64,000 bases of DNA from Candidatus Nomurabacteria bacterium. Its GTDB lineage: Bacteria > Patescibacteriota > Minisyncoccia > Phycocordibacterales > UBA918. Made by a program: the position numbers and the translations under genes. The notes under the pieces were generated by a model. It saw nothing but the letters and a program-made list of their open reading frames with translations. It ran no database searches and was not told where the DNA came from. The stretch lies in contig CP060227.1 in assembly GCA_023898525.1 (NCBI GenBank), positions 11,244-75,243 on the forward strand, given 5' to 3'. This document shows, in pieces, positions 17,480 to 42,995 of this stretch (position 1 is its first letter; every line of letters begins with the position of its first letter).

Positions 17480-18802
17480 ATGGCGAAACCGCTGATTGTT
17501 TGTCGTGACCTATCGATTATTTACAACAAAGGAAAGTCAAATGAATTTAAGGCTCTGACCGGGGTAAATACAGATATTTATGAAGGTGAATACATCATCT
17601 TGTTTGGTGCGTCTGGTTCTGGTAAATCTACTCTAATGTATTCCATCCAAGGCTCTTTACCCCCGGGAGAGGGTACGTTATTGATACGCGGAGATGATAT
17701 ATATTCTTATCCACCAGAAGACCGTGTGTATTTTCAGCGTTACGTAATGGGTATTATATTTCAATCCTTCAACTTGATTCCCTCGCTTTCAGTCTTAGAC
17801 AATGTGGCTCTGCCAATGATCTTTTGTGATGCTGACAAAGCCAGTCGCGAGCGGCGAGCTCAATCGTTACTAGATCGCTTTGGGGTTGGACATGTCTCCC
17901 ACAAAGTACCAGCCATGCTTTCTGGTGGTCAGCAGCAGCGTGTGTCAGTGGCACGGTCTATGGTTAATGATCCAAAAATTCTTTTGGCAGATGAGCCGAC
18001 TGGTAACCTAGACTCAGTTTCAACTCAGCAAGTGATGGATAAGATAGACGAAATTAACACATTTGATCGCCGCACGGTAATTATGGTGTCACACAACGCG
18101 GCACACCTAAGCTACGCTCATCGTGTGTACTATTTAAAGGATGGCCATATTGTGCGAGAGGTGGTAAATCCTCAACGTAAGCAAATAAAACCTGTGAAGG
18201 AAGGGGAGACGATAGTGACTGAGCTTGAGCAGTTGGCTAGACTTTTTCCTTATGACTCGGTTGATACCCTTCGAGTAAAAAGTATGGTTAATTTTTTGAC
18301 TCAGTCACTTACGTATGACCAGCTTATCCGATTGGAGCGGGCCATAGTCTTGTTTATTAAAGGTAAGCTTGATAAAAGAGCTTTCATTAAAGGTCTCATT
18401 GAAACAGAGGAAAATGGTGGGGTAGAGGTGTCATTAGCAGAAGCCAAAAGAATGGCTTCAGTAGCTGAAAAACTAATTACTCAGTCGGACGACATTAGAC
18501 GCTTTAGAGCAAAAAAAGATAATGCTGACATTTTCTTCAGTCAACACCAGCTGGCTGAGCGTTTACGAGACCATTTAATCGGCACATTTAAGATTAAGCT
18601 AAACAAGGATCAAAACAACAACCTAGTTGAATTAATTGCTGATCGGGTGACTGGTGTAATAGAAGAAGCAGAATTTAATGAATACCTGAGTAAAAGTATT
18701 CGTAATGATGGGTTGAGTTTAGATTCAAAGGAAGCCGATGAACTGACACGTTATTTTGAAAAACTAATTGCCCAGGGAGTCGATGTGAGTTATAAGAGTT
18801 AG
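17480..18802 (+). CDS. ABC transporter ATP-binding protein of the MacB/LolD/FtsE class, with an unusual ~210-aa helical C-terminal extension.
   Basis: Walker A GASGSGKST, Q-loop, signature LSGGQQQRV, Walker B LLADEPTGNLD and the H-loop are all present. Residues ~230-440 have no ABC homology. Confidence 0.85.
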   Translation: MAKPLIVCRDLSIIYNKGKSNEFKALTGVNTDIYEGEYIILFGASGSGKSTLMYSIQGSLPPGEGTLLIRGDDIYSYPPEDRVYFQRYVMGIIFQSFNLIPSLSVLDNVALPMIFCDADKASRERRAQSLLDRFGVGHVSHKVPAMLSGGQQQRVSVARSMVNDPKILLADEPTGNLDSVSTQQVMDKIDEINTFDRRTVIMVSHNAAHLSYAHRVYYLKDGHIVREVVNPQRKQIKPVKEGETIVTELEQLARLFPYDSVDTLRVKSMVNFLTQSLTYDQLIRLERAIVLFIKGKLDKRAFIKGLIETEENGGVEVSLAEAKRMASVAEKLITQSDDIRRFRAKKDNADIFFSQHQLAERLRDHLIGTFKIKLNKDQNNNLVELIADRVTGVIEEAEFNEYLSKSIRNDGLSLDSKEADELTRYFEKLIAQGVDVSYKS

Positions 18803-19050: not shown

Positions 19051-20259
19051 ATGCGAGTTCAAGACCTAGCTCAACTTTCAACCAGAATGTTTAAGACCAA
19101 TCCAATGCGTACTTGGTTGACGATTTTAGGTATGGGTGTTGGTACTGGGGCGGTAGTGGTCCTGGTGGGTCTCGGCTTTGGGTTGCAAAAAATAATTCTT
19201 GAGCAAATTGTATTTGGTGAGACCTTACTTTCTCTGGGCGTGTCCTCTACAGGAAGTCAAAATTTAAAACTAACTAACGATACTTTAGAGGAATTTCAAA
19301 AAAAACCTGAAGTTTTAGATGCTTCTCCTATGGCTAGGTACCCAGCTCTGGTTACGTACAAAGGACTAACTGGTAATGTTTTTATTCAAGGCATTGAACC
19401 ACCATATCTACGTTATGCTGGTATTACAGCCACTGATGGAGAGGTCTTTACAGATGATGATGCGGGCAACACGGACTCGGTTATGCTTTCACCAGCTATC
19501 ATAAAACTATTTGGCGTTGATGATCCAGCTTCGTTTGTAGGTGAAAAAGTATCATTTCGACTCTTGGTACCAACAGAAGATGGCTCAGGAGATATTCAAG
19601 AGGTGTCGATTGATAAAGAGTATACAGTCCGTGGAATTACCAAAGAGGAAGGTGTTTTGAACGTTATCATGATGCTGCCCGAACTAAAAAACTACGTGAC
19701 TGTCGAGGAGTATGAAAGAGTCCAGGTTAGGGTGGATAGTAATGAAAATTTACCAATTGTTGAAAAAGATCTTATCGAAGAAGGGTATAGGGTGACTGCC
19801 TTATCTAAGACAGTGGAGCAAGCTTCTAAAATATTCCAAGGAATTCAGGCCGTTTTAGCAACTTTTGGTGGTATTGCTCTAGTTGTGTCGGCAATTGGTA
19901 TGTTTAATACCATGACTGTGACACTCTTAGAGCGAACCAAGGAAATTGGGATCATGCGAACGATTGGTGCGTCTCCAAAGGATGTAAAGAATTTGTTTAT
20001 TTCGGAGTCAATTGTAGTTGGTTTTTTAGGGGGAATAAGTGGAATTGTGATGGGTGTTGTTATAGGCGTTACCATCAATGTACTGCTTAATATTGTAGCT
20101 GGACAATTTGGTGGGCAGGCAGTGACGCTATTTTCTTTCCCCATCACTTTTCTTCTTTTTATTGCACTTTTCTCCGGAGCAGTTGGGTATCTCACCGGTG
20201 TTTTTCCCGCCCGTCGGGCTGCTACTTTAAACCCACTTGATGCGATACGTTATGAGTAA
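19051..20259 (+). CDS. ABC transporter permease of the FtsX/MacB family (TM1, large extracytoplasmic domain, three C-terminal TMs).
   Basis: The N-terminus 'NPMRTWLTILGMGVGTGAVVVL' is typical of a MacB/FtsX TM1. The C-terminal FtsX-like triple-TM carries 'ERTKEIGIMRTIGASPKDV'. The true start may be the ATG at 19087. Confidence 0.8.
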   Translation: MRVQDLAQLSTRMFKTNPMRTWLTILGMGVGTGAVVVLVGLGFGLQKIILEQIVFGETLLSLGVSSTGSQNLKLTNDTLEEFQKKPEVLDASPMARYPALVTYKGLTGNVFIQGIEPPYLRYAGITATDGEVFTDDDAGNTDSVMLSPAIIKLFGVDDPASFVGEKVSFRLLVPTEDGSGDIQEVSIDKEYTVRGITKEEGVLNVIMMLPELKNYVTVEEYERVQVRVDSNENLPIVEKDLIEEGYRVTALSKTVEQASKIFQGIQAVLATFGGIALVVSAIGMFNTMTVTLLERTKEIGIMRTIGASPKDVKNLFISESIVVGFLGGISGIVMGVVIGVTINVLLNIVAGQFGGQAVTLFSFPITFLLFIALFSGAVGYLTGVFPARRAATLNPLDAIRYE

Positions 20260-20356: not shown

Positions 20357-22204
20357 ATGTTGTACAACTTACTAGGGAATTCAAATAAATTGCATACAGC
20401 TGGGAAAATCACTATTCTAACTGCGGCTACCGGACTACTTATATTCATGTTTGCTTTTGTTTTTAATGCCGGAAAGACTGAGTTAATGAAAGTCGAGGCC
20501 CAAACAGCCACTACTACACTGACTGTTTTGAACACTCCTCCACAGTGGATTAGTACGACTACTGAAGAAGTTGAATCTTCGACTTCAACACCAACAAACT
20601 CTGGAGACGAAGTTTCCTGGATTGCTGTAGCTGACAACTCTGGCTCAGCTCCTTATTTTTTGCTGATATGTAGCACAAACGCAACCCCTACACCTAATGC
20701 CGCAGCTGATCTTGGGAGTTTAGGTACGGCACCGCCAGACTGTGGAGGAGGGGTACAATGGGGAGTTTCCACAGCAACGGCTGCTTTATCACAAGCTAGA
20801 GTAGCTACTACCACCACTGAGGCTATGTCGGAGAGTAATGACTGGTTTGCTTGGGTGTGTGACGACGATCCGGTAAATCCAAGGTGTAACGATACATATA
20901 CACAAGGTACAAATGCCACAAACTCGTCACCGTTTATAGTAAACCACCGTCCAGTATTTACTACGTTCTATAATAATTCTCCAGCTGATCCTGGCGTTAC
21001 TTTTGACTTTTTCTCTACATCATCGGATCCAGATGTACTTGGAGGTGATGACGCCATTAAGCTTTATGTTTGTAATCTAAACGATTTTGTTGCCACATCA
21101 TCTGATTGTGGTCCGGGGGGAACAATTGCCAGTACCACGATTACCATTAATGACAACGCAACATCCACCTACACATTACCGAGTGTTATACAAGATGATG
21201 TTTATGATGCATGGGGATTCATTATAGATGAACATGGTCATACAGCTTCTGGTGGTGCACAAGCCACGAATGTTGGTTTCACAGTCAATAACGTAGCGCC
21301 AACAACTGTTACTGGTAATGTCAATATAAATGGAGGAGTCGATATGCCACTAACAGTAGATAATGGTGAGACAACCGGATTTACTTTAGACTTTGAACTT
21401 TCAGATGCTAACAGCTGCCAGAATGTCTCAGCTGGTGACGAAATCACAAATTTCACTGTTGCTCTACAGAGATCTACGGCTGCCTGCGATGGTACATCTG
21501 CCTCTTATGATCCAAATAATTGTTATACGAATCAGGTCGCTACAACTACATGGAATTTGTCATGTACAGCGTCAAGTACTAGCTGTACCGGTGCTACAGA
21601 TCCAACCATGCGCTGGGATTGTACCTTCCCACTGTGGTTCGTGGCCGAGCCAACCGATGCTCCGTCTCCGTACGCTGCGAACGACTGGATTGCTGTTATT
21701 GCTGGCGTAGATGATAATAATGCTACAGGTACAGCCGCTACAGGAACTATTCCGGTAGAGCTACTAAGTTTCCCGGCAATTGATCTTCTGACAGCAGAAA
21801 TACCATACGGGGCACTTGAACCAGGAAACAACACTGGAACACTGAATGCAACTACAACCGTTCAAACGGTAGGTAATACTGGCCTTAACGAAAACGTTGA
21901 TGGTGATGCCATGTGTACAACATATACACCAAGTACACCATGTCCAACCTCAGCTACGTCTACTATTCCTGACTTTGAGCAAGAGTTCGGTACCTCGTCA
22001 GTGTCTTATGGATCTGGAACTAGTTTGTCATCTAGTACGCCGCAGCTAGTTCTGCTAAAGGTACCAAAGACCACTTCAACCTCTACTCCTAATTCAGGAA
22101 TTACATACTGGGGTATCAATGTTCCTTCTTCAATTACATTATCAGGTGCTTACACTGGCCTCAACACGTTTGCTGCAGTTGTCTCTTCTTCGACGGATTG
22201 GTAA
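20357..22204 (+). CDS. Thr/Ser-rich secreted protein (615 aa) whose C-terminal tail 'ITYWGINVPSS...GLNTFAAVV' is homologous to that of the giant protein.
   Basis: It has an N-terminal signal anchor. I aligned the C-terminal ~35 aa with the end of the 1..15803 product by eye (YWGINVP, then G...N.F.A). Confidence 0.65.
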   Translation: MLYNLLGNSNKLHTAGKITILTAATGLLIFMFAFVFNAGKTELMKVEAQTATTTLTVLNTPPQWISTTTEEVESSTSTPTNSGDEVSWIAVADNSGSAPYFLLICSTNATPTPNAAADLGSLGTAPPDCGGGVQWGVSTATAALSQARVATTTTEAMSESNDWFAWVCDDDPVNPRCNDTYTQGTNATNSSPFIVNHRPVFTTFYNNSPADPGVTFDFFSTSSDPDVLGGDDAIKLYVCNLNDFVATSSDCGPGGTIASTTITINDNATSTYTLPSVIQDDVYDAWGFIIDEHGHTASGGAQATNVGFTVNNVAPTTVTGNVNINGGVDMPLTVDNGETTGFTLDFELSDANSCQNVSAGDEITNFTVALQRSTAACDGTSASYDPNNCYTNQVATTTWNLSCTASSTSCTGATDPTMRWDCTFPLWFVAEPTDAPSPYAANDWIAVIAGVDDNNATGTAATGTIPVELLSFPAIDLLTAEIPYGALEPGNNTGTLNATTTVQTVGNTGLNENVDGDAMCTTYTPSTPCPTSATSTIPDFEQEFGTSSVSYGSGTSLSSSTPQLVLLKVPKTTSTSTPNSGITYWGINVPSSITLSGAYTGLNTFAAVVSSSTDW

Positions 22205-22231
22205 CTAGGCATTAGTGAATACATATTGTTT

Positions 22232-22275
22232 CAGCCGCTGTTATCCAGACAGCGGCTGTTGCATTTTATTGTTAT
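22232..22275 (+). terminator. Rho-independent terminator: CAGCCGCTGT-tatccag-ACAGCGGCTG followed by a T-rich tract.
   Basis: A perfect 10-bp stem with a 7-nt loop, then ttgcattttattgttattttt, lies immediately after the 20357..22204 stop. Confidence 0.7.
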
Positions 22276-22333
22276 TTTTCGGATAATTATATGTGTGTAT
22301 CAAGCACGAGTAATTTTTAAAATTAAAATATTA

Positions 22334-23239
22334 GTGGCTGCTTGTCTGCTGTTTTTTATGGTGGGCACACAAATTGCTAGTGCTGGTTTTGGTATTACCC
22401 CTCCATATGTTCGCAATACAAGTTTGACAAAAAATTCGACTTACGAACAACAAATACTCCTAGTTCGTGGTGACCCAGATGTTCCGCTAAAGGCTCAAAT
22501 CACGATAGATGCTCCGGAGATTCAGGATTGGATACAAGTTATAGAAGGTACTTCAATTCCGCTACCTCGTGGAGAGCAAAAGGTGCCCATGACAGTCCGT
22601 GTTGTTGTGCCAGATGACGTTGAGTTTAAAAATTATAAGGGCGTTCTAAGAATTAAAACCCTTCCTGATGACACGCAGGTGGCAGCGGGTGCGGTCAATA
22701 TTTCTCTAGGGGCACAGGTTGATATTGATTTAACAGTGATTGATCGAGAAATCAAAGATTTTCGCGTTCGTAAGATATCAATGTCTGACTTGAATGAAGG
22801 ACACAAGCTGGCCTGGCTCTATTTTCCAGGAAAGATAAAGTTTGGAATATTACTTGAGAATACTGGTAATGTTGATATAGCACCGTCAAAAGTTGAGCTA
22901 CGCATCTTTGATTTTTCTGGAAATGTTCTACTAGAGGAGACAGCTCAGAAGGGTAAGATTAAAAAAGTTGCACCATACTTGACTGATGAAGTTATAGCTG
23001 AAATACCAACTAGACTCCCGGCTGGCAATTACGTGGCTAGATACACTATTTATAACGATGATGAAATAAAACAAGAGGGTGAAGTTAGTCTAAGTATTTT
23101 GCCATATGGCACGCTGCAGGAAGCTGGTTTTGGTTTTGGTGGATTATCTCTCGCTCACAAAATATCTGTACTTCTACCAATCTTTATAATAGTAATTTTA
23201 ATTCTTTACTTTATACATAATCGTAGACGGTCGAATTAG
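22334..23239 (+). CDS. CscA-like (DUF916/DUF3324-like) surface protein: signal peptide, two beta-sandwich domains, C-terminal TM anchor and a basic tail (HNRRRSN).
   Basis: It is paralogous to 38526..39560 and 39511..41202. I placed the start at a GTG downstream of the terminator hairpin, because the annotated ATG at 22226 would have to be read through the terminator. There is a C-terminal hydrophobic stretch, ISVLLPIFIIVILILYFI. Confidence 0.5.
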   Translation: MAACLLFFMVGTQIASAGFGITPPYVRNTSLTKNSTYEQQILLVRGDPDVPLKAQITIDAPEIQDWIQVIEGTSIPLPRGEQKVPMTVRVVVPDDVEFKNYKGVLRIKTLPDDTQVAAGAVNISLGAQVDIDLTVIDREIKDFRVRKISMSDLNEGHKLAWLYFPGKIKFGILLENTGNVDIAPSKVELRIFDFSGNVLLEETAQKGKIKKVAPYLTDEVIAEIPTRLPAGNYVARYTIYNDDEIKQEGEVSLSILPYGTLQEAGFGFGGLSLAHKISVLLPIFIIVILILYFIHNRRRSN

Positions 23240-23245
23240 TTAGAT

Positions 23246-24355
23246 ATGAAACTGTATTCTTTCCTGTTTCTTTATCTCTTCTTAATTTTATTTACTGCAC
23301 CAATTACACTAGCAGTTACTGAAGGGACAGCAACCACAACCCTTACTCTAAGTATATGTGGTAATTCATTAGTTGACCCTGGAGAACAATGCGATGCACC
23401 TGGAGAGACTGGTGTATACAGCACAACCATTGTTGGAAGACAGTGTAATGCTTCATGTAATTTTGGCCCTTACTGTGGTGATGGTGTATTACAAACATTC
23501 TACGGCGAAGAATGTGACGACGGTAATAATGATAATTCAGACTTTTGTTCTGCAATCTGCAAAGTTGAACCAGCTGGATCGGGTGGTGGCGGTAGTAGTG
23601 GTGGCGGTGGTGGCGGTGGAGGCAGTAGTCGTGATCTAGGCGATACGCAAATTAGTGTAACTGGTATCGCCTACCCGGGTCGCACGATAAACATATTATT
23701 GGATTCAGAGCCGGTTGGAAGTGTTCGCACTTCAAACTCAGGTACCTTTGATTTTGCGACTGACGCATCACCCGGAACAGCTTCGCTTAGTTTTTGGTCA
23801 ACAGATGTTTCGGGAGTTCGCTCAATCACATTGAATACTACTTTTGATGTAACACAGGGTGCAATCACGAATATATCAGGAATTGTATTGCCGCCCACGA
23901 TTAGTGTAGCAAACCAAAATGTTAATCCCGGTGATATTGTTACTGTAACAGGGCAGTCGGCTCCAAACGCTACAATTGAGCTTCATGTTAATAATAGTGA
24001 GCTAGTTGAAACTGGTACCTCAAGTGCTGATGGTGTTTGGTCAATTAAACTTGATACTGGTAAATTACAGGTTGCAGAACATACCATTAAGGCTCGCTCA
24101 ATATCTAAGTCTGGTCAACTTTCTACTCCAAGTAGCTTTAGTACAGCCTTACAGTTATTTGTGGGCGTAGAAGGAAAGATGACCACTCCATCTGACCTAA
24201 ACCGTGACGGTAAGGTAAATTTAATTGACTTTTCAATCTTGATTTTCTGGTGGGGCTCAGATGGAGGTAACTCAAGTCCGTCGGCTGATATAAATGGAAA
24301 TGGTAAAGTAGGGATTGAGGACTTTTCAATTCTTCTGTTCAATTGGAGTGGTTAG
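23246..24355 (+). CDS. Secreted protein carrying Myxococcus-type cysteine-rich repeats (CGDG...GEECDDGN...C), a poly-Gly/Ser linker, Ig-like domains and a C-terminal dockerin (DLNRDGKVNLID / DINGNGKVGIED).
   Basis: It has a signal peptide. The Cys spacing pattern and two dockerin-type Ca-binding repeats at the C-terminus are visible in the translation. Confidence 0.65.
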   Translation: MKLYSFLFLYLFLILFTAPITLAVTEGTATTTLTLSICGNSLVDPGEQCDAPGETGVYSTTIVGRQCNASCNFGPYCGDGVLQTFYGEECDDGNNDNSDFCSAICKVEPAGSGGGGSSGGGGGGGGSSRDLGDTQISVTGIAYPGRTINILLDSEPVGSVRTSNSGTFDFATDASPGTASLSFWSTDVSGVRSITLNTTFDVTQGAITNISGIVLPPTISVANQNVNPGDIVTVTGQSAPNATIELHVNNSELVETGTSSADGVWSIKLDTGKLQVAEHTIKARSISKSGQLSTPSSFSTALQLFVGVEGKMTTPSDLNRDGKVNLIDFSILIFWWGSDGGNSSPSADINGNGKVGIEDFSILLFNWSG

Positions 24356-24659: not shown

Positions 24660-25808
24660 ATGATAAGAACGCAATCTTCGTTCTCATTGCTCCAAGCTAC
24701 TGCAGTACTAAGCATAATAGCGGTCATTCTTTGGTCGCTAGGTGCCCCTGGTATCCGTTTTGCGGAAGCTGCAAATGTCAATTCATTTACTGACACACTC
24801 TCGGATTCGGCACCATCAACAGTATCGAACCACACGATTACTTTTGTAACGCCGACCGGACTGGCGGCTGGTGAAGCAATCACACTGACTTTCCAGTCAG
24901 GATTTACAGGAATTGCATCACTGGTTGCTCAGGACCTTGACCTTTTTGCGTCAGGAACTGAAAGAACGCTTATTGATGGAGCTGCATCGGGTGCTAGCTG
25001 GAATGTAACCGCATCAGGTCAGGTTATCACTATTACAAGTGGTACCGATACTATCGGAGCTAACGCTACAGTCACCATTGAGGTCGGTACAAACGCAACG
25101 TCTGGTGGAACCGGTACTAATCAAATTAGTAATCCAACCACTGGATCGTACACGATTGATGTTGCGGTCGGTGCTAGTGACACCGGAACAACTATGGTTG
25201 CAATTGTAGATACAGTTACTGTTACAGCCGCTGTTAATACCATTTTCAACTTTACGGTTAATGGTGTATCTAACGGACTAACTGTAAACGGTACTACAAC
25301 AACCGGTACATCAACATCTACGACTGTACCTTTTGGTACTTTGTCAGCTGATACCGCCGCAACCGTAGCTCAAGATCTGGTAGTAAACACTAATGCCGCC
25401 AACGGCTTTATTGTTACTGTCCAGACTGACCAGCAATTAAAATCCGCAAATTTAGCAGATATTGATGGATTTGCGAATGGTGCGTTCACTACCACACCAA
25501 CATTTTGGTCCGGGCCATCTCAGACCATAGGTCAAGAAAATACTTATGGACACTGGGGTATAACGACAGATGATGACACAATCACTGCATCATTGACTGA
25601 CCCGTTTGATGTTGGTGGTTCTGGACAAAAATATGTGTCTGCTTCAACTACTCCAGTTGAGATTTTCAGAAATGATGGTCCAGCGAATGGTACTACTAGT
25701 GGAGTTGGTACAACTCGAGTAGGTTATACAGTTGAAGTAAGTTCACTACAGGAAGCTGCAGATGATTACACAGCTACGCTGACATACGTAGCAACACCAG
25801 TATTCTAA
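24660..25808 (+). CDS. Thr/Gly-rich surface protein (about 380 aa) with an N-terminal signal anchor and the C-terminal motif '...LQEAADDYTATLTYVATPVF'.
   Basis: I chose the start at MIRTQSSFSLLQATAVLSIIAVIL, the hydrophobic N-terminus. The C-terminal 25 aa align with the C-terminus of the 2,050-aa protein (EAGDYQTEIVYLAIPSF). Confidence 0.6.
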   Translation: MIRTQSSFSLLQATAVLSIIAVILWSLGAPGIRFAEAANVNSFTDTLSDSAPSTVSNHTITFVTPTGLAAGEAITLTFQSGFTGIASLVAQDLDLFASGTERTLIDGAASGASWNVTASGQVITITSGTDTIGANATVTIEVGTNATSGGTGTNQISNPTTGSYTIDVAVGASDTGTTMVAIVDTVTVTAAVNTIFNFTVNGVSNGLTVNGTTTTGTSTSTTVPFGTLSADTAATVAQDLVVNTNAANGFIVTVQTDQQLKSANLADIDGFANGAFTTTPTFWSGPSQTIGQENTYGHWGITTDDDTITASLTDPFDVGGSGQKYVSASTTPVEIFRNDGPANGTTSGVGTTRVGYTVEVSSLQEAADDYTATLTYVATPVF

Positions 25809-25932
25809 AATATTGGTACCAAGCTTGGGGTAAAACAAGAAACCTATCTCCCACCACGAGACGGGTTTTTTGTTTATCCTTTGCTGTGTACAGTCCTAAT
25901 AAGCAAGGAGGTAATTTTGTTATAATTTCAAA

Positions 25933-26985
25933 ATGATAAGAACATTAGCAGCTTTGCTTATTTTCATTTTTGCAACTCCGGTCGCTCTTGGGGCTACGTT
26001 ATATATTGACCCAGGAACAGCAACTTTAAACCGCGGTGATGCTGTTACGTTAGCTGTTAGACTGGTACCTGACAAAGATAAAGGGGAGTGTATAAATGTG
26101 GTAGATGCTGAACTCAAGTATTCTAACTCAATTCAACCCGTGGATGTATCAATTGGTCAGTCTATACTGAGTGTCTGGCTTGATGAACCGACGATCAATC
26201 GTGACCAGAATACAATTACCTTTACTGGTGGGATTCCAAATGGGTACTGTGGCCGGGTGAGTGGAGACCCAAGAATGACAAATATTGTTGCGGAAATAAT
26301 TTTTAGGTCACCCGGAATGCAGGTAGGTGTGTCAGCTGCTTCCAGTGAGGCAAAAGTGGAGTTCACACCCAAAACCCAACTTCTTCTAAATGATGGTCAA
26401 GGTACAAAAGCTGAGTTACGCACCTTAGGTGCAACCTTTGCTTTGACTAACTCAGCCAGTTCAACCGTATCGGACGTTTGGAGACAGAACGTTAAAAGTG
26501 ATACCATACCGCCCGAGGAATTTAGTATAGAATTAGTAAAAGATAATGATGGAATTGATTTTAATGGAAGATATTACATAGTTTTTACTACAACTGATAA
26601 ACAAACCGGAATAAGCCACTACGAAGTAATGGAAGAACCCCTCTCTAAGTTAAACTCGTTTACTTGGGGAGGCGCAGATGTACCATGGAAGAAACCAGAT
26701 CATGCAAATGTCTACGTATTAGAGGATCAAAGTCTTAATAGTACAATCCGCGTCAAAGCCGTAGACAAGGCCGGAAATGAATACATAGCTACGCTGGTAC
26801 CAGATGAGTCATTAAGAACTATCACCAACAATCAGATATTTAACTGGGCGATTCTCGTGGGAGTGATAATTATCCTAATTATACTTGGTGTCGTTGCTGT
26901 CATTATTTTACGCAGACGTAGAAACTCAGAGACTAGCGTAGATTCTGCAGACAGCAATGATCCTGATTTAACGTCAAGTAACTAA
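25933..26985 (+). CDS. Cohesin-domain-like surface protein with a C-terminal TM anchor and basic tail (ILRRRRNSE).
   Basis: It has a signal peptide. The N-terminal domain ('LYIDPGTATL..G..V.L.V.L....PINA/INV...L.Y...I..V') is paralogous to the N-termini of 26992 and 29429. The C-terminal hydrophobic stretch is AILVGVIIILIILGVVAVII. Confidence 0.6.
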   Translation: MIRTLAALLIFIFATPVALGATLYIDPGTATLNRGDAVTLAVRLVPDKDKGECINVVDAELKYSNSIQPVDVSIGQSILSVWLDEPTINRDQNTITFTGGIPNGYCGRVSGDPRMTNIVAEIIFRSPGMQVGVSAASSEAKVEFTPKTQLLLNDGQGTKAELRTLGATFALTNSASSTVSDVWRQNVKSDTIPPEEFSIELVKDNDGIDFNGRYYIVFTTTDKQTGISHYEVMEEPLSKLNSFTWGGADVPWKKPDHANVYVLEDQSLNSTIRVKAVDKAGNEYIATLVPDESLRTITNNQIFNWAILVGVIIILIILGVVAVIILRRRRNSETSVDSADSNDPDLTSSN

Positions 26986-26991
26986 TCGTTT

Positions 26992-28740
26992 ATGTGCAAT
27001 TTTTTTTCGCTAAAGCTACCTGAATTAATTATTCTCGCCGTTATCATTTTTTCTCTGCCTAACTTTAGTTTGGCTGCTTCACTTTATGTAAGTCCGGATA
27101 CTGGCGTATATGTGGCTGGTAAGACTTTTACAACCAAGATTGCTATAAACACCAACGGAAAACCTATCAATGCTGCTGAGGGAACACTGAAATTTAACCC
27201 TCAAGAACTGAAAGTATTGTCCATTAATAAAACAGGTTCAATTTTTAATCTCTGGGTCACTGAGCCTACTTTTTCTAATTCGGCTGGTACCATTAACTTC
27301 AGCGGTGGTATGCCGAGTGGTTACACTGGGAGTTCTGGAACTATTTTCAACGTAACCTTTACAACTACAGCAGCGGCTACAGCAAAACTGTCATTTACTA
27401 ATGGGTCAGTTTTAGCCAATGATGGAATGGGTACTAATGTACTCACAGGTATGAAGGGTGGTACTTACACTATACAGCCACAGACTTCACAGCCAGCTGC
27501 TGAAGTTGTTGAATACGTTCCTCCAGCTAATACTCCTGGAACTCCGCAGATAAAATCAACAACACATGTAAACGGGGAGTGGTCAAAGAATACTACAGCA
27601 GATTTATCTTGGACTATACCGGCTGGAGTCACAGCTGTTCGGACCAATTTAGATAATTCTCCCAACACCATTCCAACCAAAGTCTATGAGCCTGGGATCA
27701 GTCAAATAACTTTACCTAGTCTTGATCAGGGTATTTCATATTTTCATTTACAGTTCCGCAATTCTGATGGTTGGGGCAAGGTGGCCCATTTTCAAATAAA
27801 AGTTGATACAGAAAAACCACTTTCAGTTAATTTAAGTTCACCGGCTGATGCTGATTTTACAAATCCGGTTCAGCAAATAAAAGTTGAAGCTAAAGATGAG
27901 ACTTCGTTGGTCTATAGTTATAAAGTTAAGATTGATAATGAGGAGCCTTTTGATTACATAGACGAGAATAGAGAAGGTGTTATTGTTTTGCCACCACTTC
28001 TGCCAGGGTATCACTCTGTGATAATAGAGGCTTTTGATGAAGCTGGTAACGGTCTTGTAGCCACGCACTCTTTTACGATTCTAGCTTTCGACAAGCCTAC
28101 TTTTACTGAATATCCTTCCGAAATAAATGAAGAAGTAATACCGGTAATACGCGGATTGTCGAGACCAAATGCTGAACTGGAAATTTTCCTAAAGAAGTCA
28201 GGCGCAGAGCCGGAAACCTACAGTATTTTAGCCGATAATGGAGGTATATTTACATTCATACCTTCAGGCACATTAAGTGTTGGTGTTTATGAGCTCTCAG
28301 CTCGAGCAACTGATGAATTTGGCGCTCAGTCAGAACTTTCAGATATTGTTAAAATAGCGGTGCAGCAACCAGGGTATGTGAGGATTGGAAATTGGTTAAT
28401 TAGTCTTCTTTCTATTGTTATTCCACTCGTTGCTCTTCTAATATTACTAATATTATCAGTTCTATACCTCATTAATAGAGCTCGTCGCTTCAGAAGTAGA
28501 GTAGCTATAGAGTCTAGCGAAGTTACACAAATTGTAGAAAAAGAGTTAGCTGGTCTACAATCATTACTAGATTTCCATAAACTAAAGTTAGAACAATCAA
28601 GAAAGACAAACAAGCTTACAAAAGCCGAAAGTGGTATGATAGAGGAGTTAAATAAATCATTAACACAAGCCAAGACCAGAATCAGTAAAGAGGTAGCAGA
28701 TGTAGAGCAGGTAGTAAAAAGGAAGAAATCTAATAACTAA
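26992..28740 (+). CDS. Cohesin-domain-like protein with Ig/FN3-like repeats, a C-terminal TM anchor and a cytoplasmic coiled-coil tail.
   Basis: It has a signal peptide. The cohesin-like N-domain includes 'ASLYVSPDTG...PINAAEGTLKFNPQELKVLSI'. The TM is LISLLSIVIPLVALLILLILSVLYLI, followed by RARRFRSR. Confidence 0.6.
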   Translation: MCNFFSLKLPELIILAVIIFSLPNFSLAASLYVSPDTGVYVAGKTFTTKIAINTNGKPINAAEGTLKFNPQELKVLSINKTGSIFNLWVTEPTFSNSAGTINFSGGMPSGYTGSSGTIFNVTFTTTAAATAKLSFTNGSVLANDGMGTNVLTGMKGGTYTIQPQTSQPAAEVVEYVPPANTPGTPQIKSTTHVNGEWSKNTTADLSWTIPAGVTAVRTNLDNSPNTIPTKVYEPGISQITLPSLDQGISYFHLQFRNSDGWGKVAHFQIKVDTEKPLSVNLSSPADADFTNPVQQIKVEAKDETSLVYSYKVKIDNEEPFDYIDENREGVIVLPPLLPGYHSVIIEAFDEAGNGLVATHSFTILAFDKPTFTEYPSEINEEVIPVIRGLSRPNAELEIFLKKSGAEPETYSILADNGGIFTFIPSGTLSVGVYELSARATDEFGAQSELSDIVKIAVQQPGYVRIGNWLISLLSIVIPLVALLILLILSVLYLINRARRFRSRVAIESSEVTQIVEKELAGLQSLLDFHKLKLEQSRKTNKLTKAESGMIEELNKSLTQAKTRISKEVADVEQVVKRKKSNN

Positions 28741-28754
28741 TATAAATAATACCT

Positions 28755-29432
28755 ATGACAAATTTTTTCAGAAAGAACGGAATATATGTAGCAGGGGTTT
28801 TGGTAGGTATATTTGTAGTACTTGTCTCAGCACAAGCAATAACAAATCAAAAACTGAGCAGTCTTAGGTACCATATAGATAATGAAATTACTCTCCAGAC
28901 TGCCAAAGTCGAGAATTTAGCGAAATTAATAGGGAATGGAAAATCTAATGCTAAGGCTGAAGCACTGGTTAAAGCTTGCGCCTCGGCTGATAACGACCTG
29001 TACGAAAACCTTTTATCTAAGTTAGATAACGGTCTTGGACAATCAGACTTAAAGACACTAAACAGCTTATTTGATGAATGTGGTTATGTTTACGCAAACA
29101 GGAGAGCTGATATGGTCTATCAGTTTGAGTACGAGGTTAATAATTTACTTTTCTTAGTCCAAGAAAGGAATTATTTTGATGGAGAAAAGGTTGGCTTACT
29201 AGATAATTCTCTCAAATGGAATGAATTGCTTTTGATAGAAGATAATATCAGAGACAATTTTCTTGAGCTGGTTGTAATTCAAAAGCACATCATAACGACT
29301 CTACTTGCTGGAGAAACCAAGGATTCTTATGCGGTTCAAGCCTTACGTGAAGATGCTGAGGAGGTTCGAACTAACTTGTCAGAATCAACCAAAAAGGCAT
29401 CTACGCTAAGATCAGAACTTATAAAATCATGA
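28755..29432 (+). CDS. Hypothetical N-terminally anchored protein (225 aa).
   Basis: There is an ORF with an N-terminal TM segment (IYVAGVLVGIFVVLV). Its stop overlaps the next start (ATGA), which suggests translational coupling. Confidence 0.5.
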   Translation: MTNFFRKNGIYVAGVLVGIFVVLVSAQAITNQKLSSLRYHIDNEITLQTAKVENLAKLIGNGKSNAKAEALVKACASADNDLYENLLSKLDNGLGQSDLKTLNSLFDECGYVYANRRADMVYQFEYEVNNLLFLVQERNYFDGEKVGLLDNSLKWNELLLIEDNIRDNFLELVVIQKHIITTLLAGETKDSYAVQALREDAEEVRTNLSESTKKASTLRSELIKS

Positions 29433-30184
29433 AATCAGTAATTTCTCTTTGGAAGAATATAAGAGGAAAGACACCAAATACCGCATCAGTCAGGACTATA
29501 AAATACATGTTTCCAATGTTTTTTGGGGCAATTGTAGTTTTGTTCGCCAGCATAATTGGCTCTGATAAGTCGTACGTAAAACTAGTACCATCTCAAACAC
29601 TGGTAATGCAAGGAGAAAATTTTTCTGTGGATGTCTACGTGAATGCTCATATTCCGGTTAACGCCATTGATGTTAGAGTAGCTTTTCCAAAAGATAAGGT
29701 TCAAGTTCTAGGTATAGATAAAGGTGGTTCAGTCTTAACCATTTGGACTGAGGAACCGATAATAGAAAACAATACAGTGAAATTTAGTGGCGGTACATTT
29801 AAACGTGGTTTTCTAGGCGAGCATTTGATTGGGACTATCAATGCTAAAGCTAAATATACCGGTAAAACAGAATTTGCTGTTACAGAAGCTCAGCTTTTGG
29901 CGGGTGATGGGGCAGGAAGTGTTGTGGCCATTGATAACGAAAGTACAGAATCTAAAACCAGCTTTTACATTTATGACCAAAATGAAGATCCAACTAAAAT
30001 ATCAGCCGAAATTGGCGTCAATATAGTCGGTGACCTAGATGGTGATGGTAGTGTTAGTATTAAGGACATCAGTGTCTTCATGGCAAATTGGCGTTCGAAA
30101 AAGATGGTCTATGATTTTAATAGTGATGGCAAAATGAATTTCATTGATTTCTCAATAATTTTAGCTAGATCTTTCTTTAATTAA
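29429..30184 (+). CDS. Cohesin-like domain protein with a C-terminal dockerin (DLDGDGSVSIKD / DFNSDGKMNFID).
   Basis: An N-terminal TM is followed by a cohesin-like domain paralogous to 25933 and 26992. There are two dockerin Ca-binding repeats at the C-terminus. Confidence 0.65.
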   Translation: MKSVISLWKNIRGKTPNTASVRTIKYMFPMFFGAIVVLFASIIGSDKSYVKLVPSQTLVMQGENFSVDVYVNAHIPVNAIDVRVAFPKDKVQVLGIDKGGSVLTIWTEEPIIENNTVKFSGGTFKRGFLGEHLIGTINAKAKYTGKTEFAVTEAQLLAGDGAGSVVAIDNESTESKTSFYIYDQNEDPTKISAEIGVNIVGDLDGDGSVSIKDISVFMANWRSKKMVYDFNSDGKMNFIDFSIILARSFFN

Positions 30185-30315
30185 CAGTAGACCGCCAATA
30201 CGCTTATTTACTATGTGTTCATGTTGATAATAAGCAAATAATTACGGAATATTATTTGGTATTATTATATAAGTGATGGGTGGGCTTACTCTCTGCTACG
30301 CATGGCTGCTATCTG

Positions 30316-32328
30316 ATGAGTAAAAAAATAATTAACAATTCAGTTGTAAGAACTAAGACAAAAGCCAAGTCAATTGGGCGGCGTTTTATTCGTGCTCCGG
30401 TTATTGGCACAGACAAAACTGTAATTCAAACAGTTCCTCTATATCGCTACGTCTACTCAAGCCGATACTCATTATTGGTGGTTTTCTGGTTGCTTGTGTC
30501 ATTGTTTATGCAGGGTATTCAGCTAGCATATGCTAATGAAGATACGTTACAAATAGAAAATGAAGCTGAGGTTCAACAAGAGGAGTCGCCAGTACAAACG
30601 GCAACGGAACCAGTGACTGACTCTGTAGCTGAGGAAGAAGAGTTGGTGGAACCGAAAGAAGAAAATATAGACAGCTCAAATGATCAAGAAAATATATTAG
30701 TTGATGAACCAGAGCCTGCTATCGAAGAAGAATATACACAAAACCCAAACCCCTCAGCTCCTTTGCTACAGCAACAAACTAAACCGGATAAATCAACCGA
30801 AACCACAGAACCTACGAACCTCTTGCTTGATTCTGATGTTTTGGAGGGAGATGATACAATACTAAACCTGGTAACATCTGAGAGTGAACTTACAGCTAGC
30901 GGTACAGTTTTGGATATAAATAAGCAAACTACAACCAACGAAACACCATCTTCTTCTACCTTAGAAAGAGATACGGCTATCAGTACTGAAATTTCTTCAG
31001 CTACCACAAACACAAATTTAGAAACAAGTACACCGTCCAATAATTCTGAGCAGCCTGTAGACTCAACCGATCAAGTCAAAGACCTTGATACTTCAGGAAG
31101 TGGAAACAACGGAGATAGTAGCTCGGATAATTTAGACAAAAAAATAATCAAAGAGCTTAATAACTCAACAACAACTGAATCTGAATTTCTAGCGACGACT
31201 GGCCCGGTTCAAGAAACAAAAGAATCTGTTTCAATAGTACAAAGTGATAGCGACTATGCTTTTAACAAAAGTGAGTGCACCGAAGTGGCTGACGGGTCTT
31301 TTTACTGTCATCAGCCCAAAGCTACTATACTGGACGACGCTCTATTTTCTGCCCCCGACGCTGATGGTGACTTAGAGATTTTTGTTGTTAGAGAGGGGCA
31401 GCAAACTCAAGTTACTCATAACAAAATAGATGATGCATCACCTTATTACGATAGTAAATCAAACACTATCGTTTGGCATAGGCTTATAAATGATCGTTTT
31501 CAAATTATTTCTTACGACCTAGAGACAGGAGAAGAAGAACAAATAACCACAGGCAAGGTTAACAATATGGAACCAACTAGACAAGGTAAATATATTGTCT
31601 GGCAACGATGGATTAATAACAGTTGGAATATTGTGTTGTTCAATGGTGAGGAGGAAATACCGATCACAGCTGATGACAGTCATAACATATCCCCACATAT
31701 ACAAGGTTCCCTAATTATATGGAACAAGCACACTCCTAGTGGTGATAAAAAAATCCAAATGTACAATCTGGATAGTCAATCCTATGTAACTGTTAATGAT
31801 CCCGACGGGCTGACGGTCGATAATCCAAGGATGGTGCTGGTCTATGACTCACTTCATGCCAACGGAGACATCATTACAAAAGGGTTTGATATAATGACAG
31901 GCGAATTCATTGATCTAGATACTCTACCGAGAAAAGTACCGGAAATCCCCGATAGCGAATCAACTCCAGAGACTAGAGCCTTAATACAGGCCAAGCCAGA
32001 GATTGAACATATAAGTAAGGATAAAGCTGGATCAGTTCCTCTTGATCAAGATCCTGACCAGATTGAGAATCTAGAACAGTCTACATCAACAACCGTACCA
32101 ACTCTGGATCTAAGTACCGGAACATCAACAAATAACATTTCCACAACTTCTGATGGTACCATTGAGGATATTAAAGATTTGGAAATTAGTTCTCTAGTGA
32201 CCGATGAGGAGCTAGCTAAGGAAGAAAGAGTAGAGGCTATCCCTGACTTGGAAATCCCACCATTTGAAACTGAAGATACTCAATCAATCAGCCAGGGCAT
32301 AGCTACATCGACTGAACTTGTGCAATAA
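30316..32328 (+). CDS. Membrane-anchored acidic Ser/Thr/Glu-rich protein with C-terminal beta-propeller-like (TolB/PD40-like) repeats.
   Basis: A TM segment (LLVVFWLLVSLFM) is followed by a low-complexity acidic region and then repeated 'I.W.R.....W.I' blade-like units. Confidence 0.5.
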   Translation: MSKKIINNSVVRTKTKAKSIGRRFIRAPVIGTDKTVIQTVPLYRYVYSSRYSLLVVFWLLVSLFMQGIQLAYANEDTLQIENEAEVQQEESPVQTATEPVTDSVAEEEELVEPKEENIDSSNDQENILVDEPEPAIEEEYTQNPNPSAPLLQQQTKPDKSTETTEPTNLLLDSDVLEGDDTILNLVTSESELTASGTVLDINKQTTTNETPSSSTLERDTAISTEISSATTNTNLETSTPSNNSEQPVDSTDQVKDLDTSGSGNNGDSSSDNLDKKIIKELNNSTTTESEFLATTGPVQETKESVSIVQSDSDYAFNKSECTEVADGSFYCHQPKATILDDALFSAPDADGDLEIFVVREGQQTQVTHNKIDDASPYYDSKSNTIVWHRLINDRFQIISYDLETGEEEQITTGKVNNMEPTRQGKYIVWQRWINNSWNIVLFNGEEEIPITADDSHNISPHIQGSLIIWNKHTPSGDKKIQMYNLDSQSYVTVNDPDGLTVDNPRMVLVYDSLHANGDIITKGFDIMTGEFIDLDTLPRKVPEIPDSESTPETRALIQAKPEIEHISKDKAGSVPLDQDPDQIENLEQSTSTTVPTLDLSTGTSTNNISTTSDGTIEDIKDLEISSLVTDEELAKEERVEAIPDLEIPPFETEDTQSISQGIATSTELVQ

Positions 32329-42444: not shown

Positions 42445-42446
42445 CA

Positions 42447-42995
42447 ATGACTAGTAAAACCGTCTACCTGACAATAATGAGTACAGTGCTTCTGCTTGTA
42501 GCTGCCGTAACATACTATGTTGTTTACCAAAATAACCATTCAATAAATAAAGTCACGCAGGAGATTTTTGCTGAACCCACTGCACCTGAGGCCGAACCAT
42601 ACACTGACCTTGAAGGGAACAAATCTGATCTGGAACAATATCTCGGCAGAACAATGGTAGTAAACTCTTGGGCGAGCTGGTCACCATTTTCTAAGTCTGA
42701 TTTGGAAACTTTGGCGATGCTGGCAGAGAAGTATCAACAAAAAGATGTTGTTTTTTTGGCAATCAATCGAAAAGAATCAAAACAACAGGCTCAGCGCTTT
42801 TTAAACACCATACTCGGTAACACTAATGTTCAACTTGTATTAGATCCGAGAGATCACTTCTACAAATCCATTGGTGGCTATGCTATGCCCGAGACAGTGA
42901 TTTACGATTCCCGCGGTAACATGGTAACTCATATTCATGGCTCTATAAACCAAAGGGAAGTAGAAGCTGCGCTCGACACTCTCTTGGAGAATTAA
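42447..42995 (+). CDS. TlpA/ResA-like thioredoxin-fold protein with a degenerate active site (WASWSPFS in place of WxxWCxxC).
   Basis: An N-terminal TM is followed by the thioredoxin-like 'MVVNSWASWSPFSKSDL'. Both catalytic cysteines are replaced by Ser. Confidence 0.6.
   Translation: MTSKTVYLTIMSTVLLLVAAVTYYVVYQNNHSINKVTQEIFAEPTAPEAEPYTDLEGNKSDLEQYLGRTMVVNSWASWSPFSKSDLETLAMLAEKYQQKDVVFLAINRKESKQQAQRFLNTILGNTNVQLVLDPRDHFYKSIGGYAMPETVIYDSRGNMVTHIHGSINQREVEAALDTLLEN

What the first reader, a model, noticed from the sequence alone, without database searches (positions are those of the whole stretch)
25720..25808. A second conserved C-terminal motif, '[L]QEA.D.Y.....Y.A.P.F', shared by the 396-aa protein and the 2,050-aa protein
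The 24660..25808 product ends 'YTVEVSSLQEAADDYTATLTYVATPVF'. The 32369..38521 product ends 'YRIKVNEMQEAGDYQTEIVYLAIPSF' (nt ~38440-38521). These proteins differ greatly in size and composition, and each sits next to a CscA-like or cohesin gene. This looks like a second family of terminal tag in the same locus, perhaps a variant of the YWGINVP tail with Y in the W position, or a donor-strand/anchoring element.
Basis: seen in the sequence. Interest (0 to 1): 0.6.

Follow-up and report, generated by a model that had tools for sequence, protein, structure and literature searches.

The report
Pam-like pilin domain in Nomurabacteria
The shared tail is the last beta-hairpin of a roughly 185-residue C-terminal domain, distantly related to the pilin domain of the recently described CPR "Pam" pili. 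One small pilin-like protein and one giant adhesin-like protein carry it, next to membrane-anchored chaperone-like genes, so it is probably a strand-exchange surface fibre.

Summary
The two proteins share a whole C-terminal domain of about 195 aa (31% identity, E=6e-11), and the tail is only its end.

- **Family size:** the domain defines a large family restricted, as far as seen, to CPR bacteria: 2,057 clusters at 50% identity. It almost always ends at the last residue of the protein.
- **Carriers:** it sits on two kinds of protein. One kind is about 350-390 aa and pilin-like. The other is giant, 1,000-5,226 aa.
- **Pam link:** 49 of 52 family members scanned hit NCBIfam NF058581 (Pam pilus pilin C-terminal domain). 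Nearly all matches span the whole profile. All score 17-36 bits, below the 55-bit cutoff.
- **Small protein:** the AlphaFold2 model (pLDDT 90) shows a signal peptide, a beta-sandwich N-terminal domain, a conserved linker with alternating hydrophobic residues that is unstructured in the monomer, and the C-terminal domain. This is the PamA/PamB architecture. The giant proteins lack the linker.
- **Neighbour gene:** the product of 38526..39560 models as two beta-sandwiches plus a transmembrane helix. Its best solved-structure match is E. faecium WxLIP bound to a WxL protein, followed by chaperone-usher chaperones.

Most likely this is a Paceibacteria-type Pam-like pilus with a major pilin, a giant tip adhesin and membrane chaperones. 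No homology to the YWGINVP tail family was detectable.

The parts
24660..25808 (+). Small pilin-like protein, 382 aa. Signal peptide is residues 1-37 (AEA|ANV). The whole gene belongs to the feature.
   Evidence: Translation. 390 homologues of about 360-370 aa from Paceibacterota, Kaiserbacteria and Nomurabacteria. AlphaFold2 pLDDT 90.1.
24771..25205 (+). N-terminal beta-sandwich domain (residues 38-182)
   Evidence: DSSP strands E41-47 through E174-182 in the AlphaFold2 model.
25206..25244 (+). Conserved linker (residues 183-195), the proposed donor strand. It lies within a stripe of alternating hydrophobic residues: V180, I182, V186, V188, A190, V192, T194, F196, F198, V200.
   Evidence: Coil with pLDDT about 75-79 in the monomer model. 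Invariant or near-invariant columns. Fourth most conserved 13-residue window of the protein. All 12 linker positions are aligned in 36 of 50 small-class representatives (two more have 10-11). At most 2 of 12 are aligned in 71 of 80 proteins of 480 aa or more.
25245..25805 (+). C-terminal domain (residues 196-382), a Pam-pilin-C-like proposed strand acceptor
   Evidence: BLASTP to the giant protein. NF058581 hit covering profile positions 2-148 of 148, 17.6-19.2 bits. pLDDT above 90.
25743..25805 (+). The tail of the finding (residues 362-382, LQEAADDYTATLTYVATPVF): the turn plus the final beta-strand E374-380, which follows strand E351-360
   Evidence: DSSP. It is the most conserved 13-residue window of the whole protein, 368-380. 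It is invariant across homologues.
25833..25875 (+). Hairpin followed by a U-run directly after the pilin gene (terminator-like)
   Evidence: RNA fold -21.9 kcal/mol, z=-3.8, 0 of 200 shuffles fold as well. The simple consensus scan missed it.
32369..38521 (+). Giant protein, 2,050 aa: signal/anchor segment, long repetitive adhesin-like N-terminal region, then the same C-terminal domain. Proposed tip adhesin.
   Evidence: Translation. The domain profile hits it at E=5e-85. Homologous giant proteins of 1,000-5,226 aa end in the same domain.
38006..38518 (+). C-terminal domain of the giant protein (about residues 1880-2050). The tail MQEAGDYQTEIVYLAIPSF is at 38462..38518. There is no pilin-type linker upstream. 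It has a conserved Cys pair, C1970/C1977.
   Evidence: NF058581 hit at 21.5 bits covering 3-148 of 148.
38526..39560 (+). WxLIP-like / PamC-PamD-like membrane-anchored protein (344 aa): signal peptide, two beta-sandwich domains, TM helix 280-305, cytoplasmic tail. Proposed chaperone.
   Evidence: AlphaFold2 pLDDT 88. Foldseek top hit 9i25_C, WxLIP bound to long WxL (E=1.2e-11), then the CfaA, EcpB, Caf1M, FimC and CsuC chaperones and RbmA. Pfam WxLIP_PGBD hit in 29 of 51 homologues, all sub-threshold.
39511..41202 (+). Second WxLIP-like paralogue (563 aa) with a TM helix and an extra C-terminal region
   Evidence: 28% identity over 326 aa to the 344-aa protein, E=3e-18. Faint WxLIP_PGBD hit on record. 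Its orthologue lies immediately downstream of the pilin gene in 18 other genomes.

Best explanation
The motif is the C-terminal beta-hairpin of a domain of about 185 residues that is a distant relative of the C-terminal domain of Pam pilins. Pam pili are the donor-strand-exchange pili of CPR bacteria described in 2026. The locus most likely encodes a Paceibacteria-type version of that fibre.

Proposed mechanism:
- The 382-aa protein is exported by Sec and is the major subunit. Its C-terminal domain is an incomplete Ig-like fold.
- The conserved linker of the next subunit completes that fold. The linker has alternating hydrophobic residues V186, V188, A190 and V192.
- The invariant tail, ending in a free aromatic C-terminus, forms the terminal strand or strands of the acceptor domain.
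- The 2,050-aa protein has the acceptor domain but no donor linker. It can therefore only sit at the distal end, as a tip adhesin.
- The membrane-anchored two-domain proteins at 38526..39560 and 39511..41202 hold and deliver subunits as chaperones, or anchor the base.

Shown: the homology of the two C-terminal domains, the size and architecture of the family, the sub-threshold but consistent match to the Pam pilin model, the fold class of the neighbour, and the gene linkage.

Inferred: strand exchange itself, the groove-lining role of the tail, the tip position of the giant protein, and the chaperone role.
For: - Domain homology: E=6e-11 over 196 columns.
- Pam model: NF058581 CPR_Pam_pilin_C is hit by 31 of 32, 9 of 10 and 9 of 10 family members. 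Nearly all matches cover the whole profile and end on the last residue. The best E-value is 6.9e-10. In two distant members only the last 46-61 residues match, so the tail region is the part best shared with true Pam pilins. Two members also match the PamT model at their N-termini.
- Architecture: the AlphaFold2 model is signal peptide, beta-sandwich N-terminal domain, unstructured linker, C-terminal domain. This matches the published PamA/PamB description.
- Conservation: it peaks at the tail, at C-terminal-domain motifs and at the linker. The Pam paper reports the same for the donated linker and its binding site.
- Linker: it is fully aligned in 36 of 50 small-class representatives and absent in 71 of 80 large ones.
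- Neighbour: two beta-sandwiches plus a TM helix. It matches WxLIP and chaperone-usher chaperones. This is the architecture reported for PamC/PamD.
- Linkage: a WxLIP-like gene lies within the flanks in 64 of 80 loci from other species, and in 49 of 52 loci with at least 15 kb of sequence. It is immediately downstream of the pilin gene in 18.
- Compact operon: L068 reads giant protein, WxLIP-like, WxLIP-like, pilin, pilin, WxLIP-like.
- Terminator-like hairpin after the pilin gene.
Against: - No member reaches the curated 55-bit cutoff of NF058581. Scores are 17-36 bits.
- No solved Pam structure was available for comparison. The PDB sequence search found nothing. Foldseek with the pilin model gave only generic two-Ig-domain adhesins such as ClfA/ClfB, SdrG and Als.
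- No NCBIfam or Pfam chaperone model hits the neighbours above threshold.
- I could not run a multimer prediction or inspect coordinates. The open groove, the donor role of the linker and the position of the tail relative to the groove are therefore untested.
- Covariation between linker and tail was inconclusive, because the inward-facing residues are invariant.
- In the window itself the two strongest WxLIP-like genes follow the giant gene, about 12.7 kb from the pilin gene.
Confidence: 0.65

Rival explanations
1. WxL-type surface display without polymerisation. The C-terminal domain is a non-covalent anchoring module, like the WxL domains of CscB/CscC in Firmicutes. A strand from the membrane-anchored WxLIP-like protein completes it, and it may also bind the cell wall. 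The small and giant proteins are then simply displayed on the cell surface as a complex, not as a fibre.
For: The locus logic matches the minimal WxL cluster of small protein, large protein with the same C-terminal domain, and a DUF916-DUF3324-TM protein. The 344-aa neighbour's best structural match is WxLIP bound to long WxL, 9i25_C at E=1.2e-11. WxLIP_PGBD is the Pfam family most often hit by its homologues, 29 of 51. [quoted passage not shown] The domain is always C-terminal, as WxL is.
Against: Pfam WxL gives no hit for any of 32 members even at E<=10. The dual W-x-L motif is missing. Only the small class has one W-G-[LI], and the giant class has none. Small WxL proteins are the WxL domain alone. 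Here the small protein has an extra N-terminal domain and a conserved donor-like linker that the giant proteins lack. That difference is hard to explain without subunit-to-subunit contacts. The sequence signal points to the Pam pilin model.
Confidence: 0.22
2. The tail is a C-terminal sorting or secretion signal. A dedicated machine, for example the neighbouring ABC/FtsX-type transporter or a sortase-like enzyme, would recognise it and perhaps cleave it.
For: The tail is strictly C-terminal, nearly invariant and ends in an aromatic residue. An ABC ATPase plus FtsX/MacB-like permease pair is conserved in synteny upstream. A sortase gene lies near the pilin in L001.
Against: There is no LPXTG-like motif, no hydrophobic helix and no basic tail, and the protein stops two residues after the Pro. 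The residues are modelled with high confidence as a beta-hairpin inside a folded domain. They are the end of a 195-aa homology region, not an appended tag. Both proteins have ordinary N-terminal Sec signals.
Confidence: 0.05
3. Chance similarity between two beta-strands in threonine-rich, low-complexity surface proteins.
For: Both proteins are rich in T, S, G and A, which inflates short matches.
Against: The composition-adjusted BLASTP E-value is 6e-11 over 196 columns. There are 2,057 family clusters with the same terminal motif. Invariant non-low-complexity positions include FG, TNA..G, P..W, Q.A, Y and P.
Confidence: 0.01

Closest known systems
Pam pili of Candidatus Mycosynbacter amalyticus (PamA/PamB/PamE pilins, PamT tip, PamC/PamD chaperones, PamR anchor; Troman et al., bioRxiv 10.64898/2026.03.03.709456; NCBIfam NF058581, NF058579)
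   Same: It occurs in CPR bacteria only, as far as seen. The pilin has a Sec signal, a beta-sandwich N-terminal domain, a single conserved linker and a C-terminal domain that ends at the protein C-terminus. The linker and the C-terminal domain are the most conserved parts. Adjacent genes encode two-Ig-domain proteins with a C-terminal TM helix that resemble chaperone-usher chaperones and RbmA. Some loci carry tandem pilin paralogues. The C-terminal domains give consistent full-length hits to the Pam pilin C model.
   Different: All scores are below the curated cutoff (17-36 bits against 55). The host is Nomurabacteria and its Paceibacteria relatives, whereas the paper reports mainly Saccharimonadia and Microgenomatia. 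The acceptor domain is also fused to giant proteins of 1,000-5,000 aa, where the paper describes a single-domain PamT tip. The small pilin has no cysteines, whereas PamA and PamB have 2-3 Cys pairs. The locus is interleaved with cohesin/dockerin-like genes and a second triad. The ATP-synthase neighbourhood reported for the pam operon is not in the ORFs I scanned.
WxL clusters of Firmicutes (CscA/WxLIP = DUF916-DUF3324-TM; CscB small WxL; CscC large WxL)
   Same: The logic of small protein, large multi-domain protein with the same C-terminal domain, and membrane-anchored two-Ig-domain partner. [quoted passage not shown] The partner is predicted to complete the domain's beta-sandwich with a strand. 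The window's 344-aa protein has solved WxLIP as its best structural match.
   Different: There is no Pfam WxL hit and no dual W-x-L motif. The small protein has an additional N-terminal domain and linker. The phylum is different. No LPXTG CscD-like gene was found among the scanned ORFs.
Chaperone-usher pili (Pap/Fim, CFA/I, Csu, Caf1)
   Same: The proposed principle is an incomplete Ig-like subunit completed by a donor strand with alternating hydrophobic residues. The tip adhesin carries an acceptor domain but no donor strand (FimH and PapG logic). The conserved strand ends at the free C-terminus. The two-domain chaperone fold appears among the structural matches to the neighbour.
   Different: The host is a monoderm and no usher was found. 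The donor would be an internal linker and not an N-terminal extension. The putative chaperone is membrane-anchored. There is no sequence-level match to PapD or fimbrial Pfam families.

Membership tests
Pam pilin C-terminal domain (NCBIfam NF058581 CPR_Pam_pilin_C) | Score at or above the curated cutoff of 55 bits | tested here: not met
   The window proteins score 17.6-19.2 and 21.5 bits. Fifty further family members score at most 36 bits. 49 of the 52 proteins scanned hit at E<=0.1, and nearly all matches cover profile positions 2-4 to 148.
Pam pilin (PamA/PamB type, Troman et al. 2026) | Sec signal peptide, beta-sandwich N-terminal domain, single linker strand and C-terminal domain | tested here: met
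   AlphaFold2 model: helix 2-26, strands 41-182, coil 183-195, strands 196-380, pLDDT 90. Published description.
Pam pilin (PamA/PamB type) | The donated linker and the C-terminal-domain binding site are the most conserved regions | tested here: met
   The top-ranked 13-residue windows are the tail 368-380, then 242-254, 293-305 and the linker 178-190.
Pam pilin (PamA/PamB type) | The C-terminal domain is a truncated Ig-like open barrel that accepts the neighbour's linker, and the protein forms filaments | not testable with these tools
Pam operon | Membrane-anchored PapD/FimC-like chaperones encoded nearby | tested here: met
   The 344-aa protein has two beta-sandwiches plus a TM helix. It matches WxLIP and the CfaA, EcpB, Caf1M, FimC and CsuC chaperones. 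Linkage to the pilin gene holds in other genomes. No Pam-chaperone sequence model hit was obtained.
WxL domain (Pfam PF13731; CscB/CscC) | Pfam WxL model hit | tested here: not met
   No hit for the two window proteins at E<=1. No hit for any of 32 members at E<=10.
WxL domain | Two conserved Trp-x-Leu motifs | tested here: not met
   The small class has one W-G-[LI] (YGHWG[LI]T). The position of the second motif reads TY[VI]A. The giant class has G[YF]H and Y[IL]A, with no Trp at either site.
WxL cluster | A small protein and a large protein sharing a C-terminal domain, plus a WxLIP (DUF916-DUF3324-TM) gene | tested here: inconclusive
   The organisation matches. The partner is WxLIP-like by fold. 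Its Pfam WxLIP_PGBD score is 13.2 bits against a cutoff of 27.3, and 29 of 51 homologues hit only below threshold.
Chaperone-usher pilins | N-terminal extension as donor strand, usher gene and periplasmic PapD-family chaperone | tested here: not met
   The mature N-terminus is part of the folded N-terminal domain. No usher or PapD Pfam/NCBIfam hit appeared in the scanned neighbours.
Sortase-dependent (LPXTG) pilins or surface proteins | C-terminal LPXTG motif, hydrophobic helix and basic tail | tested here: not met
   Both proteins end ...P-x-F with no hydrophobic segment at the C-terminus.

The most novel reading that the evidence does not exclude
The Paceibacteria family may be a bridge showing that CPR Pam pili and the WxL/WxLIP surface clusters of Firmicutes (Enterococcus, Listeria, Lactobacillus) are branches of one ancient strand-complementation system of monoderm bacteria. 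Its acceptor domain matches the Pam pilin model. Its membrane-anchored partner matches solved WxLIP better than any chaperone-usher chaperone. The small-plus-large-plus-partner gene logic is that of WxL clusters. If so, WxLIP would be a pilus-type chaperone, and WxL proteins might be assembled or anchored by donor-strand exchange. The Pam paper does not mention WxL at all.
Probability: 0.3. Interest if true: 0.75.

Novelty: new variant of a known kind. Interest (0 to 1): 0.55.

Why it matters
CPR (Patescibacteria) cells are thought to live attached to host cells, and how they attach is largely unknown. Pam pili were solved only in 2026, in one cultured Saccharimonadia species, and were reported mainly from two classes. 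This locus suggests three things.

- A related but more divergent fibre system is widespread in Paceibacteria (Parcubacteria). It comprises about 2,000 protein clusters at 50% identity and at least 286 species-level genomes, all below current annotation thresholds.
- The same acceptor domain is a general C-terminal handle by which giant adhesin-like proteins, up to more than 5,000 aa, could be mounted on the fibre.
- The partner proteins tie the system structurally to the WxLIP proteins of Gram-positive pathogens and commensals.

It also yields a simple sequence signature, Q-x-A-G/x-x-Y-x5-Y-x-A/V-x-P-x-[FY]-COOH, for finding such proteins.

Tried and rejected
- **Pfam:** scans of both proteins and of 32 domain members found nothing relevant and no WxL hit.
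- **PDB sequence searches:** profiles of the full pilin, the C-terminal domain and the neighbour found nothing meaningful. PamA and PamB could therefore not be compared directly.
- **Foldseek with the pilin model:** against PDB it gave only generic two-Ig-domain adhesins at TM about 0.2, because the two domains have no fixed orientation. This is uninformative about the C-terminal domain alone.
- **YWGINVP family:** hhalign of its C-terminal region (47 sequences taken from the fetched loci) against the domain alignment gave probability 0.6%. Only a 14-column IP[YF]G.L match appeared. Homology is not supported.
- **Covariation:** MI with APC correction on 179 pilins (Neff about 147), linker against tail, was inconclusive. 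The best linker-tail pair was T187-T371 at z=3.8.
- **The search for related loci:** the mixed alignment A2 had no conserved stretch to search with, so A1 was used.
- **NCBIfam:** scans of the other neighbours found no Pam chaperone, PamR or PamT hit in the window.
- **Sorting-signal reading:** rejected on sequence grounds.

Full report
**Observation**

Both tails are in the sequence as described. The small gene most likely starts at 24660 (382 aa) and not at 24618, judging by the N-termini of its homologues. The tails are the end of a much longer similarity. BLASTP aligns residues 188-382 of the small protein with 1875-2050 of the 2,050-aa protein, at 31% identity and E=6e-11. In the window only these two ORFs carry the domain.

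**Family**

- The C-terminal half of the small protein has 390 homologues in the 5.8-billion-protein collection. Most are unannotated proteins of 360-370 aa from Paceibacterota, Kaiserbacteria and Pacebacteria, and none has a Pfam domain.
- All 120 listed homologues end in LQEA..DY.A.LTY[VI]ATP.F.
- The giant protein's domain has 32 homologues, mostly gene fragments. They end in Q[PE]AG.Y.T.[IV].Y[IL]A[VI]P.[FYH].
- A joint profile (A2) searched with HMMER against 1.84 billion representatives finds 2,057 clusters at E<=1e-3 and 351 at E<=1e-30. In 136 of the best 150 the match ends on the last residue.
- Among those 150, 63 are at least 1,000 aa long (up to 5,226) and 48 are 330-479 aa.
- The window comes from a Candidatus Nomurabacteria MAG. 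The 344-aa neighbour is 100% identical to H6779_00095.
- A scan of one genome per GTDB species found 286 genomes that encode a relative of the small protein.

**What the domain is**

Pfam finds nothing. NCBIfam gives a weak match for both window proteins to NF058581, 'CPR_Pam_pilin_C, Pam pilus system pilin subunit'. The match covers the full profile, at 17.6 and 21.5 bits against a cutoff of 55.

The signal is consistent across the family. 31 of 32 members of A2 hit the model (best E=6.9e-10). So do 9 of 10 divergent small proteins and 9 of 10 mid-size proteins. Nearly all matches run from profile position 2-4 to 148 and end at the protein's last residue. In two distant members only the last 46-61 residues match, so the tail region is the part best shared with true Pam pilins. 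Two members also match the PamT model at their N-termini.

I read this as real but remote homology. The family lies outside the curated family boundary.

The source paper (bioRxiv 10.64898/2026.03.03.709456) describes the following:
- PamA and PamB have a nine-strand beta-sandwich N-terminal domain, a single linker strand and a truncated Ig-like C-terminal domain that accepts the linker of the neighbouring subunit.
- The linker and its binding site are the most conserved parts.
- PamC and PamD resemble PapD/FimC and carry a C-terminal TM helix.
- PamT is a tip subunit without a linker.
- PamR is an RbmA-like anchor.
- The reported distribution is mainly Saccharimonadia and Microgenomatia.

**Anatomy of the small protein**

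The AlphaFold2 model, built with 54 sequences, has pLDDT 90.1. It contains:
- a signal helix at residues 2-26;
- a beta-sandwich at 38-182;
- a coil at 183-195, with lower confidence (about 75-79);
- a beta-rich domain at 196-382.

The tail is the turn LQEAADDY plus the last strand 374-380, which follows strand 351-360.

Conservation over 54 sequences peaks at the tail (368-380, the top window), at 242-254, at 293-305 and at the linker 178-190. Residues V180, I182, V186, V188, A190, V192, T194, F196, F198 and V200 form an unbroken i/i+2 stripe of invariant or near-invariant residues. Part of the stripe lies in the segment that is unstructured in the monomer model. That is what a donor strand lacking its partner should look like (inference).

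Aligned to a pilin profile, all 12 linker positions are present in 36 of 50 small-class representatives, and two more have 10-11. At most 2 of 12 are present in 71 of 80 proteins of 480 aa or more. The giant proteins therefore have the acceptor domain without the donor-like linker. This is the logic of FimH, PapG and PamT tip subunits (inference).

A strong hairpin with a U-run follows the small gene at 25833..25875 (-21.9 kcal/mol, z=-3.8).

**Neighbours**

The product of 38526..39560 models at pLDDT 88 as two beta-sandwiches, a TM helix at 280-305 and a cytoplasmic tail. Its Foldseek matches against the PDB, in order, are:
- 9i25_C, 'WxLIP from Enterococcus faecium locus A bound to long WxL' (E=1.2e-11), and 9i1y;
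- the class 5, archaic and classical chaperones CfaA, EcpB, Caf1M, FimC and CsuC;
- RbmA.

Pfam WxLIP_PGBD is the family most often hit by its homologues, 29 of 51, all below threshold.

The next gene, 39511..41202, is a paralogue (E=3e-18). The gene at 22226..23239 is a more distant one (hhalign E=2.2e-5).

In 80 loci from other species, a WxLIP-like gene lies within the flanks in 64, and in 49 of the 52 loci with at least 15 kb of sequence. It is immediately downstream of the pilin gene in 18. L068 carries a compact set: giant protein, WxLIP-like, WxLIP-like, pilin, pilin, WxLIP-like. L002 is syntenic with the whole window cluster.

**Relation to WxL**

Published work on WxL clusters describes a small WxL protein, a large protein with a C-terminal WxL domain and a DUF916-DUF3324-TM protein (WxLIP). 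[quoted passage not shown]

The window has the same gene logic and a WxLIP-like partner. The domain itself fails the WxL tests, with no Pfam hit and no dual W-x-L motif. The small protein also has an N-terminal domain and a linker that small WxL proteins lack. The Pam paper does not mention WxL. A common origin of the two systems is therefore open, and I give it as the novel case.

**Relation to the YWGINVP tail**

The window holds a second triad: the giant gene at 24..15803, the 615-aa gene at 20357..22204 and the WxLIP-like gene at 22226..23239. In 48 homologues the tail reads T[YF]WGI.VP..I[TS]LAG.Y.G.NTF.A......W. By eye, the stretch AG.Y....T[FY].A resembles the tail studied here. Profile-profile comparison gives probability 0.6%, so I do not claim homology.

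**Verdict**

- It is wrong in treating the tail as a tag and as a YWGINVP variant.
- Best explanation: a Pam-like pilus of Paceibacteria with a major pilin, a giant tip adhesin and membrane-anchored chaperone-like proteins (confidence 0.65).
- Main rival: a WxL-like, non-polymerising display complex (0.22).
- Strand exchange itself remains untested here.

Noticed in passing
window 24..15803, 20357..22204, 22226..23239: A second, parallel triad: a giant protein (at least 5,259 aa, running off the window start), a 615-aa protein that shares about 290 C-terminal residues with it (a close L002 orthologue of the 615-aa protein, 73% identical to it, matches the giant at E=5.5e-21), and a WxLIP-like TM protein. 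The tail T[YF]WGI.VP..I[TS]LAG.Y.G.NTF.A......W is conserved in 48 loci. It is not detectably homologous to the domain studied here (hhalign probability 0.6%).
   Followed up: partly
window 17480..18802 and 19051..20259: An ABC ATPase and an FtsX/MacB-like permease lie directly upstream of the surface-protein cluster. The same order is conserved in L002 (Pfam ABC_tran, MacB_PCD, FtsX). A role in export or assembly of the cluster's proteins is possible but untested.
   Followed up: no
window 23246..24355, 25933..26985, 26992..28740, 29429..30184: Cohesin-like and dockerin-like genes are interleaved with the pilus genes. 23246..24355 has Dockerin_1, Big_6 and DUF4215. The N-termini of 25933, 26992 and 29429 are paralogous, and their homologues in L001 and L002 carry weak Pfam Cohesin hits. 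Two of them have C-terminal TM helices. The arrangement is conserved in L001 and L002.
   Followed up: partly
window 25833..25875: A strong hairpin flanked by an A-run and a U-run lies 25 nt after the pilin stop codon (-21.9 kcal/mol, z=-3.8). It is terminator-like and would fit a highly expressed major subunit gene. The simple terminator scan did not report it.
   Followed up: partly
window 41752..42995; giant protein residues 1970 and 1977: DsbA/thioredoxin-like and AhpC/redoxin-like genes follow the cluster. The giant-type C-terminal domains have a conserved Cys pair (W..GC....GC.GYH), whereas the small pilin has no cysteine.
   Followed up: no
L001 14598..16517 against window 24660..25808: The N-terminus of a 639-aa dockerin protein in another genome matches residues 33-96 of the pilin ORF as read from 24618, i.e. 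residues 19-82 of the 382-aa protein (36% identity, E=6e-8). The conserved mature N-terminal segment AANV..SDTLSDS.PS..S.HTI.F is therefore a module shared beyond pilins.
   Followed up: no
L068 1..10305: A compact operon in another genome: a giant protein ending in the domain, two WxLIP-like genes, two tandem pilin paralogues and a third WxLIP-like gene. It is a good minimal system for modelling or expression.
   Followed up: partly
P0374 and P0383 (431 aa, from the representative search): Mid-size family members whose N-terminal 70-80 residues match the NCBIfam PamT model (E=1.7e-7 and 7.5e-6) and whose C-termini match the Pam pilin C model. They are possible intermediates between this family and the curated Pam families.
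   Followed up: no
window 30280..32328: A 682-aa protein with an acidic, low-complexity N-terminal half and TolB-like beta-propeller repeats lies between the cohesin-like genes and the giant gene. It is conserved in L002.
   Followed up: no
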